Source: Candidatus Heimdallarchaeum endolithica
GTDB lineage: Archaea > Asgardarchaeota > Heimdallarchaeia > Heimdallarchaeales > Heimdallarchaeaceae
Length of the DNA: 64,000 bases
Reading direction: 5' to 3'
NCBI GenBank assembly: GCA_021513715.1
Contig: CP084167.1
Location: 1,888,001 to 1,952,000 of the forward strand
Part shown: piece after piece, positions 30,281 through 32,128 of the stretch
Layout of the letters: every line of letters begins with the position of its first letter
Numbering within the stretch: the stretch's first letter is position 1
Program-made: the position numbers and the translations under genes
Notes under the pieces: generated by a model
What the model was told of the DNA's origin: nothing
Databases searched by the model: none
What the model saw: only the letters and a program-made list of their open reading frames with translations

Positions 30281-32128
30281 ATGAAAAAAGAAGAGAGATT
30301 GGAAATTGATATTTTTGAAAATTCAGAGAGTGGAATAGGAATAACAGATAAAGAAAATAAGTTCATATATGTAAACAATGCAGTTTGCAATCTTTTTGAA
30401 TACACAAAAGAAGAGTTTCTGAAGGGAGAAATAAAAGTAAATGATCTGTTTCCAAAAATATATCTAAAAAACCCAGCAGAAAAAGAATTTATCCCATTAA
30501 CAGAATATGAAATGGTAACTAAAAATGGAGAATTTATTAATGTGGCAGTAAGTAGCTCAAGAATAGCAAACTCAGAATTAAAATTACTCGTTTTTCAAGA
30601 CATGAGCTTAATAAATAAAGCTAAAAGAATGGGTATGTTAGAAATAATAAATTACGCAAAAAAGAATATAGGAATAATACATTATTCATTCGAAAATACA
30701 GGTCCAGAACTAATAGCAAAGGTAGATACAGAAAACTACCCAGAAGAAGTCATTAGAGCACTGCAATCAATGGGACTATATTATATGACAGCAATACAGA
30801 ATAAGAAAGGATTATTTGGACCATTACCAGTACCAGTAAAAGGAGAAGACTACCTAGCAATAGTCTATAGCTATGAAATAGAAACAAAAGAAGAAATAGA
30901 TAAAAGATTCAAGCAAAAAAAACCGTGTATAATCACATTAGTTTTTCCAAAAGTAATAGAATCGCTATTATCAAACAGGAGATACATAAGAGAAACAATA
31001 TCAGAAGTAATAAAAGAGAATTACCATAGAACGACGGATATACAAAGTATAAAAAATAGTTTAAGAAAAATAAAAACAAACCTTTTTGAAAATATAGAAA
31101 AACAAAAAGAGGAAAATACATTCGAAAGAAAAGTATTACAAATAAATCAATTCATAACAAGTTTTGGAGATGTAAAGATAAATGAGCAATTATATGCAAG
31201 AATATTAAAAATAGCGAAAAAAATATGCGATTTCAAAAGAATATCAATATTATTAATGGATTATCAAGTAAATGGGCTAAGGGTGGTAGAAGCAAGTGGA
31301 TATGAAAAAAATATTATAGATATGATAATAGATATAGACGCAAAGTCAATCGTAGCTAGAGCAGCTAGAACAAGGCAAACACAAAACATCCAAAACGTTC
31401 AGAAAGACAAGGACTATATAATGGTTGATCCAAGCGTGTTAGCAGAATTAGCAGTACCAGTAATATCACCAGTTAATGATAAAACAGTAGGAGTAATAAA
31501 CATCGAAAGCGAAATGGAAAAAGCTTTCAACCAAGAAGACGTGATATTGTTCGAGATGTTGGCAGAAAAAATAGCACTAGTATTGGCAATAGAAGAAACA
31601 GAAACAAAATATCTATCGCTACTGAATGTGCTAAGCTTTATAGCAGAAACTGAAGAATTAAAGTATAAAGAGTTAATTGGGAGGATAGGAGAATTTCTAA
31701 AGAAAACTCTTGGAATAAAGTGTGCAGCCCTTTTTATGACAGAGGAAGAAAACAAAAAAATTCTAAAAATGGAAGGAATAACAGGATACGAAGAAATACC
31801 AGAAGAACTAAAAAAAGTAAACATAGAAGACGAAAAAGGAGTAGTAGAAAAGTGCGCGAGAGAAAAAAAGGCATTAAACATAGGAAACGTGAAAGAAATA
31901 GATTATTATTTAGGCATAAACGAGAAAATAAAAAGTGAGATAGCAATACCGATAATAAAGGAAGGAGAACTAATAGGAGTAATAAACGCAAAAAGTGAAA
32001 GAGAAAATGCATTCACAAAAACAGACGAAAAGTTGTTTTTTATCATAGCAGAACTAATAAGCTTCGCAAAAACAATAATGGATTTAAAAGAAAAAATTAA
32101 AAAGAATGGAAATGAAGAAAAAGTTTAA
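30281..32128 (+). CDS. PAS + putative longin/uDENN-like + GAF-GAF sensor protein, no kinase or HTH output
   Basis: PAS (ITD...FIYVNNAVCNLFEYTKEE); two GAFs (AELAVPV...VGVINIES..AF; SEIAIPI...IGVINAKS...AF). Confidence 0.8.
   Translation: MKKEERLEIDIFENSESGIGITDKENKFIYVNNAVCNLFEYTKEEFLKGEIKVNDLFPKIYLKNPAEKEFIPLTEYEMVTKNGEFINVAVSSSRIANSELKLLVFQDMSLINKAKRMGMLEIINYAKKNIGIIHYSFENTGPELIAKVDTENYPEEVIRALQSMGLYYMTAIQNKKGLFGPLPVPVKGEDYLAIVYSYEIETKEEIDKRFKQKKPCIITLVFPKVIESLLSNRRYIRETISEVIKENYHRTTDIQSIKNSLRKIKTNLFENIEKQKEENTFERKVLQINQFITSFGDVKINEQLYARILKIAKKICDFKRISILLMDYQVNGLRVVEASGYEKNIIDMIIDIDAKSIVARAARTRQTQNIQNVQKDKDYIMVDPSVLAELAVPVISPVNDKTVGVINIESEMEKAFNQEDVILFEMLAEKIALVLAIEETETKYLSLLNVLSFIAETEELKYKELIGRIGEFLKKTLGIKCAALFMTEEENKKILKMEGITGYEEIPEELKKVNIEDEKGVVEKCAREKKALNIGNVKEIDYYLGINEKIKSEIAIPIIKEGELIGVINAKSERENAFTKTDEKLFFIIAELISFAKTIMDLKEKIKKNGNEEKV

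What the first reader, a model, noticed from the sequence alone, without database searches (positions are those of the whole stretch)
30281..32128. PAS/GAF sensor with a longin(uDENN)-like domain instead of a kinase output
Seen: PAS, a ~120-aa domain (30668-31020), a coiled coil and two GAFs, with no HisKA, HATPase or HTH. The middle domain starts IIHYSFENTGPEL and has IVYSYEI...D.R....CIITLVF. Known from memory: hydrophobic-F-x(3-5)-GP and a later F.I.D..AR strand pair typify the uDENN/longin domains of NPRL2, folliculin and C9orf72, which regulate small GTPases. Inference: prokaryotic small-molecule sensing wired to a eukaryote-like GTPase regulatory module.
Basis: partly seen in the sequence, partly recalled or inferred. 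Interest (0 to 1): 0.7.

Follow-up and report, generated by a model that had tools for sequence, protein, structure and literature searches.

The report
Sensor-flanked folliculin-type longin in Asgard archaeon
A Heimdall-group archaeon, one of the closest relatives of eukaryotes, makes a soluble protein in which bacterial-style small-molecule sensors surround a domain like the one human cells use to switch off Rag and Arf GTPases; fusions of this kind are already published, but this one is a clean, testable candidate for a metabolite-controlled GTPase off-switch.

Summary
The middle domain (131-270) folds confidently as a longin (pLDDT 94). Its best matches are an Asgard longin (Z 14), Lst4, FLCN, C9orf72 and NPRL2. 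It keeps the GP motif, and R209 (98% conserved in 107 homologues) maps through an Asgard bridge family onto the arginine fingers FLCN R164 and SMCR8 R147. The architecture recurs in about 20 clusters, including Hodarchaeales. Both GAFs resemble free-methionine-sulfoxide reductase without its catalytic cysteines. Most likely it is a ligand-gated GAP for an Arf/Rag-like GTPase (about 50%). Binding and catalysis are unshown, and only 1 of 15 relatives abuts a small GTPase. A candidate client lies elsewhere in the genome. Longin fusions to two-component domains (Liu 2020 preprint) and the GP/Arg finger in Asgard longins (PMC12290439) are published. This scan found related sensor-longins on other DNA before. 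Verdict: new variant of a known kind.

The parts
30281..32128 (+). 615-aa soluble protein, PAS-longin-GAF-GAF; no transmembrane segment (max 19-residue hydropathy 1.56)
30311..30607 (+). PAS domain (res 11-109); no conserved Cys or His in the family, so no sign of a LOV or heme type
30602..30667 (+). helix linking PAS to the longin (res 108-129)
30671..31090 (+). uDENN/GAP-class longin domain (res 131-270)
30701..30706 (+). GP motif G141-P142 at the start of strand 2
   Evidence: motif described in PMC12290439
30809..30835 (+). family signature G-L-F-G-P-L-P-V-P (res 177-185, strand 3)
30899..30907 (+). D207-x-R209 in the strand 4-5 loop; R209 is the candidate arginine finger
31094..31171 (+). 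helical linker from longin to GAF1 (res 272-297)
31184..31585 (+). GAF1 (res 302-435), fRMsr/YebR-like pocket: Y379, E389, N407, E409; redox cysteines replaced by Val
31664..32068 (+). GAF2 (res 462-596), same subtype; the family's pocket Glu is Lys571 in this protein
32213..32323 (+). intron-containing tRNA just downstream (anticodon GAT by inspection, tRNA-Ile); a neighbour only, no functional link shown

Best explanation
A soluble one-component regulator whose output is the longin. Shown: the domain order, the longin fold, the GP motif and an almost invariant Arg in the register of the FLCN/SMCR8 arginine finger. Inferred from how PAS/GAF proteins and longin GAPs are known to work: it forms a parallel dimer along its helical spine. 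Small metabolites binding the GAF pockets and/or PAS would shift the helices that enter and leave the longin. That would expose or position R209 so that it reaches into the active site of an Arf/Rag-like small GTPase and speeds GTP hydrolysis: a ligand-gated GAP, with a second longin (its own dimer mate or another) as platform. The best candidate client is the 312-aa Arf-like GTPase with a longin-like C-terminal domain at G000:C1:2045244-2046182 (weak evidence). The ligand is unknown; an amino acid or similar amine is the best guess.
For: Fold: pLDDT 93.7; Z 14.0 to 8YQG (rmsd 2.9, 136 aligned), 12.2 Lst4, 11.9 FLCN in the active GAP complex, 11.4 C9orf72, about 10 NPRL2/Npr2, against <=9.2 for TRAPP, AP and SNARE longins. 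Register: an Asgard FLCN-like profile hits human FLCN (E 5.7e-4) and, weakly, SMCR8 (E 0.12), with its invariant Arg on FLCN R164 and SMCR8 R147. Our family aligns to that profile (hhalign prob 95.6, E 1e-8) with R209 on the same Arg. The same profile ranks this protein second among 5,396 ORFs of the genome (E 0.025). R209 and D207 are 98% conserved in a surface loop. The domain behaves as an output: it is C-terminal in 62 of 107 homologues, after REC, PAS or TPR, with no kinase family among the 25 families listed for 64 other homologues. GTPase links in the family: 3 of 7 paralogues in this genome lie within 1.3 kb of a small-GTPase gene. A GAF-PAS-longin gene abuts an Arf-like GTPase in 10 related genomes. 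One PAS-longin-GAFx3 relative abuts a GTPase gene. That Arf-like GTPase has a copy without a longin neighbour in four genomes, all of which carry PAS-longin-GAF-GAF.
Against: This gene has no GTPase neighbour (nearest small GTPase 59 kb away), and only 1 of 15 loci of the architecture has one adjacent. GTPase adjacency is patchy in the wider family: 2 of 20 sampled loci, and the REC-longin/GTPase pairing of this genome is not kept in two relatives. The Arg loop has a 3-residue insertion relative to FLCN/SMCR8. The best structural match, 8YQG, lacks the Arg, so the fold alone does not imply GAP activity. The eukaryotic GAPs are heterodimers with other subunits, and no partner is identified here. 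The co-occurrence with the candidate GTPase rests on few independent events: the longin-neighbour state is one clade, one supporting genome has 8% contamination, and two incomplete carriers show no orthologue. The papers read here report no biochemical GAP assay for an Asgard longin.
Confidence: 0.5

Rival explanations
1. The longin binds a small GTPase but is not catalytic. It acts as a ligand-controlled platform, effector or exchange factor, as most longin/DENN proteins do, and D-x-R is a binding determinant.
For: Most longin domains are GEFs or platforms (PMC3747258 abstract; PMC12290439). The Arg loop differs from FLCN by an insertion and an invariant Asp. DENND11 clusters also match by shape (TM 0.61-0.65).
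Against: The GP motif is reported in GAP-type longins and absent from DENND, TRAPP and adaptin longins. The Arg aligns to two known catalytic arginines. Among eukaryotic structures, longins of GAP complexes outscore the others.
Confidence: 0.22
2. The longin is a pairing module: it heterodimerises with another longin (the C-terminal longin-like domain of an Arf/Rag-like GTPase, or a REC-, TPR- or DENN-longin) and so titrates or recruits that partner. The sensors control pairing, not catalysis.
For: The closest solved structure is an Asgard longin dimer (8YQG). GTPase-longin fusion clusters match the domain by shape (TM 0.77). The genome has about 8 related longins and 8 GTPases with such C-terminal domains. 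The gene has no fixed neighbours.
Against: Pairing alone does not explain a 98%-conserved Arg in the strand 4-5 loop; the GTPase-fused C-terminal domains inspected here and 8YQG lack it.
Confidence: 0.17
3. A sensor-only accessory protein: the longin, which shares the profilin-like sandwich with PAS and GAF, is a fourth input or spacer, and the protein acts in trans on a histidine kinase or other prokaryotic output, with no GTPase involved.
For: Here the longin is internal, between sensors (23 of 107 homologues). PAS/LOV/IclR effector domains appear as weak fold matches. No GTPase neighbour. Liu et al. read these longins as regulators or sensors within two-component pathways.
Against: In most homologues the same domain is the terminal and only possible output (REC-longin, PAS-longin). 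No kinase gene is a conserved neighbour in the loci examined (one or two have a PAS gene nearby). The GP and Arg motifs are intact.
Confidence: 0.11

Closest known systems
Asgard 'NPRL2-like longin' domains fused to two-component signalling domains (Liu et al., bioRxiv 10.1101/2020.10.19.343400, Fig. 5c)
   Same: A longin of the NPRL2/FLCN class joined to prokaryotic signalling domains in Asgard archaea.
   Different: The text gives no individual architectures, no arginine finger and no partner. I could not view the figure, so whether PAS-longin-GAF-GAF is drawn there is unknown. Here the longin is internal and flanked by fRMsr-like GAFs.
Asgard 'FLCN/SMCR8-type' longins with GP motif and arginine finger (Traffic 2025, PMC12290439)
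   Same: GP motif and Arg in the same arrangement; present in Heimdallarchaeia; proposed GAP for ArfR or Rag GTPases.
   Different: The Asgard FLCN-like proteins fetched here carry D-x-x-A-R-G; this subfamily has D-x4-D-x-R plus a G-L-F-G-P-L-P-V signature. The passages read mention no sensor fusions.
Eukaryotic longin GAP complexes FLCN-FNIP2 (RagC/D), GATOR1 NPRL2-NPRL3 (RagA/B), C9orf72-SMCR8 (Arf1)
   Same: Longin fold (Z about 10-12), GP motif, Arg in register with FLCN R164 and SMCR8 R147.
   Different: No DENN or NPRL2 C-terminal domains; sensors are in the same chain; the 3-residue loop insertion; no known heterodimer partner or membrane adaptor; activity untested.
Lokiarchaeal Roadblock-Longin protein, PDB 8YQG
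   Same: Best structural match (Z 14.0, rmsd 2.9 over 136 residues); a dimeric Asgard longin.
   Different: About 12-15% identity; lacks the finger Arg at the aligned position; fused to roadblock, not to PAS/GAF.
Free methionine-R-sulfoxide reductase (fRMsr/YebR/YKL069W) GAF family
   Same: Closest solved sequences to GAF1 (E 1e-5); yeast Glu132 is kept (E389), Asp149 and Asp151 are replaced by similar residues (N407, E409).
   Different: Catalytic Cys125 and Cys101 are Val here, His122 is Tyr; tandem GAFs inside a multidomain protein. It cannot be a reductase by that chemistry.

Membership tests
Longin domain (uDENN/GAP class) | beta-beta-alpha-beta-beta-beta-alpha-alpha sandwich | tested here: met
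   AlphaFold model pLDDT 93.7, elements E E H E E E H H H; Z 14.0-9.8 to 8YQG, Lst4, FLCN, C9orf72, FNIP2, NPRL2, Npr2
Longin domain (uDENN/GAP class) | GP motif before or at strand 2 | tested here: met
   G141-P142 at the start of the second strand; 97% and 76% conserved; aligned to the GP of the FLCN-like profile
FLCN/NPRL2/SMCR8 catalytic subunits | arginine finger in the strand 4-5 loop | tested here: met
   R209 aligns through a bridge profile to FLCN R164 and SMCR8 R147, with a 3-residue insertion; sequence register only, no 3D superposition of the side chain
FLCN/NPRL2/SMCR8 catalytic subunits | C-terminal DENN or NPRL2-specific domains | tested here: not met
   the longin is followed by two GAFs; so not an orthologue of FLCN, NPRL2 or SMCR8
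FLCN/NPRL2/SMCR8 catalytic subunits | longin-longin heterodimer with a partner subunit | not tested
FLCN/NPRL2/SMCR8 catalytic subunits | Arg-dependent GAP activity on a Rag or Arf GTPase | not testable with these tools
   needs a biochemical assay
Asgard NPRL2-like longin fused to two-component domains (Liu et al.) | Asgard host | tested here: met
   genome 3,326,783 bp with a 3,081,793-bp congener, matching Ca. Heimdallarchaeum endolithica and aukensis; homologues labelled Hodarchaeales; domain found in 28 of 28 genomes of the class sampled (own genome included), 9 of 123 elsewhere in the phylum
Asgard NPRL2-like longin fused to two-component domains (Liu et al.) | fusion to PAS, GAF or REC-type domains | tested here: met
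Asgard NPRL2-like longin fused to two-component domains (Liu et al.) | assignment to the same asCOG or the architecture shown in Fig. 5c | not testable with these tools
   figure and supplements not held
Histidine kinase or one-component transcription factor | HisKA/HATPase, GGDEF/EAL or HTH output | tested here: not met
   no such Pfam or NCBIfam stretch; the model is fully accounted for by PAS, longin, two GAFs and helices
fRMsr (free Met-R-sulfoxide reductase) | catalytic Cys in H-[IV]-x-C-D and resolving Cys | tested here: not met
   Val382 and Val358 in GAF1; no conserved Cys in 17 relatives
fRMsr (free Met-R-sulfoxide reductase) | substrate-binding Glu132, Asp149, Asp151 (yeast numbering) | tested here: inconclusive
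   E389 kept in 15/17, N407 in 14/17, E409 in 16/17; Trp66 and Tyr70 lie outside the aligned stretch; such residues are common in GAFs (own knowledge)

The most novel reading that the evidence does not exclude
The tandem GAFs are catalytically dead fRMsr-type pockets that bind a free amino acid (methionine, its sulfoxide or similar), and binding gates the arginine finger. One archaeal polypeptide would then do what GATOR1 or FLCN-FNIP plus separate amino-acid sensors do in eukaryotes: nutrient-controlled GAP action on an Arf/Rag-like GTPase, in Heimdallarchaeia including Hodarchaeales, with the stand-alone GTPase at G000:C1:2045244-2046182 as client.
Probability: 0.13. Interest if true: 0.85.

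Novelty: new variant of a known kind. Interest (0 to 1): 0.5.

Why it matters
Asgard archaea carry dozens of small GTPases (about 40 here), but the papers read here describe no signal-controlled GAP for them. How eukaryotic nutrient signalling through Rag and Arf GTPases arose is an open question. This protein puts sensors and a candidate arginine finger in one soluble 70-kDa chain, so the question can be tested with one protein, one point mutant and a short list of GTPases. Databases label its relatives only as 'GAF domain-containing protein' or 'putative methionine-R-sulfoxide reductase', so the longin is hidden in current annotation. The concept itself is already in the literature, which limits the surprise.

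Tried and rejected
Complex prediction of two longin copies + GTP + Mg + the candidate Arf-like G domain: no verdict (score 0.64-0.67, but one unrelated control scored 0.48). It is not used as evidence either way. Direct sequence searches of the domain family against PDB found no longin; Pfam Folliculin hit only 4 of 96 members; PF11704 and PF06218 found nothing in this genome. No conserved operon was found in 15 loci. The idea that this protein simply replaces the GAF-PAS-longin next to the Arf-like GTPase was weakened: G202 and G003 carry both types. Rejected: LOV, heme-PAS or phytochrome roles (no conserved Cys or His in PAS, no conserved Cys in the GAFs); membrane receptor (no hydrophobic segment); recent horizontal transfer inferred from the extreme A-rich codons (the bias is a local strand effect centred on the tRNA and is absent from most orthologues). 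The promoter scan was at chance level and is not suited to archaea. The longin tree has too little deep support to say which subfamily is closest.

Full report
Setting. The window lies in a 3,326,783-bp single-contig genome of 31% G+C with a 3,081,793-bp congener. These sizes match Ca. Heimdallarchaeum endolithica PR6 (3.32 Mbp) and H. aukensis (3.08 Mbp) in PMC8813620, so the identification is inferred from size. The gene (30281-32128, +, 615 aa) sits between a divergent valyl-tRNA synthetase gene (named from its sequence motifs) and an intron-containing tRNA followed by a Hef-like helicase-nuclease gene. The congener has the same arrangement and an 89% identical protein.

Observation. Pfam gives PAS at 11-109 and GAFs at 302-435 and 463-596, with no kinase, cyclase or HTH. 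The full-length model (pLDDT 84.6) accounts for the whole chain: PAS, helix 108-129, an alpha/beta domain 131-270, helices 272-297, GAF, helix 418-456, GAF and a terminal helix. There is no membrane segment.

The middle domain is a longin of the GAP class. A search of 1.84 billion representatives found 107 relatives. A model from 96 of them has pLDDT 93.7 and the longin order of elements. Against 48,161 solved representatives the top seven are 8YQG (an Asgard longin dimer, Z 14.0), Lst4 (11.9), FLCN (11.4), C9orf72 (11.4), FNIP2 (9.9), NPRL2 (9.8) and an SEA-complex subunit (9.8); TRAPP, adaptin and SNARE longins follow at 9.2 or less (one search agrees). Atlas matches are Asgard clusters with Folliculin or NPR2 hits, Asgard GTPase fusions and C9orf72 (TM 0.58-0.77).

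Motifs. G141, D207 and R209 are 97-98% conserved, as is a G-L-F-G-P-L-P-V strand. To place R209, I collected Asgard proteins that pass the Pfam Folliculin cut-off. Their profile aligns to human FLCN (E 5.7e-4) and more weakly SMCR8 (E 0.12), with its invariant Arg on FLCN R164 and SMCR8 R147 (counted from the printed alignments). PMC12290439 names R147 as the SMCR8 finger; R164 as the FLCN finger is my own knowledge. Our family aligns to that profile at 95.6% probability, with GP on GP and R209 on that Arg after a 3-residue insertion. The profile also picks this protein as second hit among 5,396 ORFs of the genome. 8YQG lacks the Arg. So the fold and the finger position are shown by sequence and model; catalysis is not.

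Family. At least 16 clusters at 50% identity share PAS-longin-GAF-GAF or a close variant, and two more have three GAFs. The full architecture was found in 6 of 83 genomes of the class and in Hodarchaeales bins, where it is annotated only as a GAF protein. The same longin is C-terminal in 62 of 107 homologues, behind REC, PAS or TPR domains, and no kinase family is among the 25 families listed for 64 of the other homologues. This is the pattern of an output domain. It occurs in all 28 sampled genomes of the class and in 9 of 123 others in the phylum.

Link to GTPases. The genome has about 40 small GTPases. Three of seven paralogues found with this family's profile lie within 1.3 kb of one. In ten related genomes a GAF-PAS-longin gene sits directly next to an Arf-like GTPase with a longin-like C-terminal domain. 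The orthologue of that GTPase in this genome (2045244-2046182) has no longin neighbour. The same is true of a copy in each of three other genomes, and all four carry PAS-longin-GAF-GAF; I predicted this for G202 before testing it. This makes it the best candidate client, but the evidence is thin. The neighbour state forms a single clade (100/100). G202 is 8% contaminated and also has the neighbour-type pair. Two incomplete carriers show no orthologue. Of 15 loci of our architecture only one abuts a GTPase gene, a divergent one, and only 2 of 20 further longin loci do.

Sensors. The PAS has no conserved Cys or His. The closest solved sequences to GAF1 are free methionine-R-sulfoxide reductases. 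By that alignment and the yeast numbering in bioRxiv 10.1101/2021.02.26.433065, Glu132 is kept (E389), Asp149 and Asp151 become N407 and E409, His122 becomes a conserved Tyr, and both Cys101 and catalytic Cys125 become Val. GAF2 has the same pattern in the family. The pockets therefore look like ligand sites without redox chemistry. An amino-acid-like ligand is a guess, because these residues are common in GAFs. By shape the tandem GAFs best match those of phosphodiesterases and CyaB2, which are dimers (own knowledge).

Mechanism. Most likely (0.5) it is a dimeric, ligand-gated GAP: metabolite binding moves the helical spine and positions R209 against an Arf/Rag-like GTPase. Rivals: non-catalytic GTPase platform or GEF (0.22), longin-pairing module (0.17), sensor-only accessory of a kinase (0.11).

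Novelty. Liu et al. reported many fusions of NPRL2-like longins to two-component domains in Asgards. PMC12290439 reported the GP motif and Arg finger in Asgard longins and proposed GAP activity on ArfR or Rag GTPases. Earlier notes of this scan describe REC-longin and GAF-PAS-longin proteins next to GTPases on other DNA, and one note read this protein's orthologue as having no output domain. It works like the catalytic subunit of FLCN/GATOR1/C9orf72-SMCR8 if the inference holds, but is not a member of those families, since it lacks their DENN or NPRL2 domains. Rating: new variant of a known kind, interest 0.5.

Noticed in passing
window 27700-35400, centred on the tRNA at 32213-32323; genome-wide: At four-fold synonymous sites the + strand is A-rich before the tRNA (skew +0.77) and T-rich after it (-0.73), whatever the gene direction; this is the strongest such flip in the genome. 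Over 41 predicted tRNAs left exceeds right in 36 (mean difference 0.48, null sd 0.034, 0 of 2000 random sets), fading over 3-4 kb. Already noted by the scan (e1-5512635, e1-1924631, the latter marked in doubt). Several strong flips have no Rfam RNA nearby. Unexplained.
   Followed up: partly
G000:C1:1385053-1389021 (L074): A run of an Arf/Rag-like GTPase-longin fusion, a degenerate GTPase-longin fusion and a GP-containing longin with D-E-R, beside a divergent MglA-like GTPase. It looks like a Rag-type pair with its own GAP; a relative in another class is flanked by two GTPases (L109).
   Followed up: partly
G000:C1:739831-741407: A small GTPase gene followed by a longin gene, both broken by frameshifts or stops in this assembly; the same order, with an intact GTPase gene, occurs in G003 and G136 (L164, L039). 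Pseudogenes or sequencing errors.
   Followed up: partly
G000:C1:354928-357100 (L072, L078): REC-longin, the closest paralogue of the domain by sequence score, lies 300 bp downstream of an Arf/Rag-like GTPase; this pairing is not kept in two relatives (L094, L095).
   Followed up: partly
G000:C1:2878882-2879985: 367-aa protein matching the Asgard FLCN-like longin profile (E 2e-9), 7 kb from an Arf-like GTPase at 2871188; missed by Pfam Folliculin.
   Followed up: no
L058:1130-8869 and L170:1103-7920: In two loci (homologues labelled Hodarchaeales) the PAS-longin-GAF-GAF gene is divergent from etfAB genes, with an OapA-like GTPase and oapB (and an actin gene in one) 4-5 kb away; acyl-CoA dehydrogenase genes lie near two relatives. 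Probably shared ancestry.
   Followed up: no
L172:6001-11177: Two tandem 779-aa PAS-longin-GAFx3 paralogues, both with D-x-R, next to DsrE and prismane genes.
   Followed up: no
G000:C1:1204599-2829617: Almost all credible tRNA genes found by ARAGORN lie between 1.2 and 2.83 Mb of the 3.33-Mb genome.
   Followed up: no
window 4445-4551, 32213-32323, 57301-57418: Three intron-containing tRNAs found by Rfam but missed by the default ARAGORN run.
   Followed up: no
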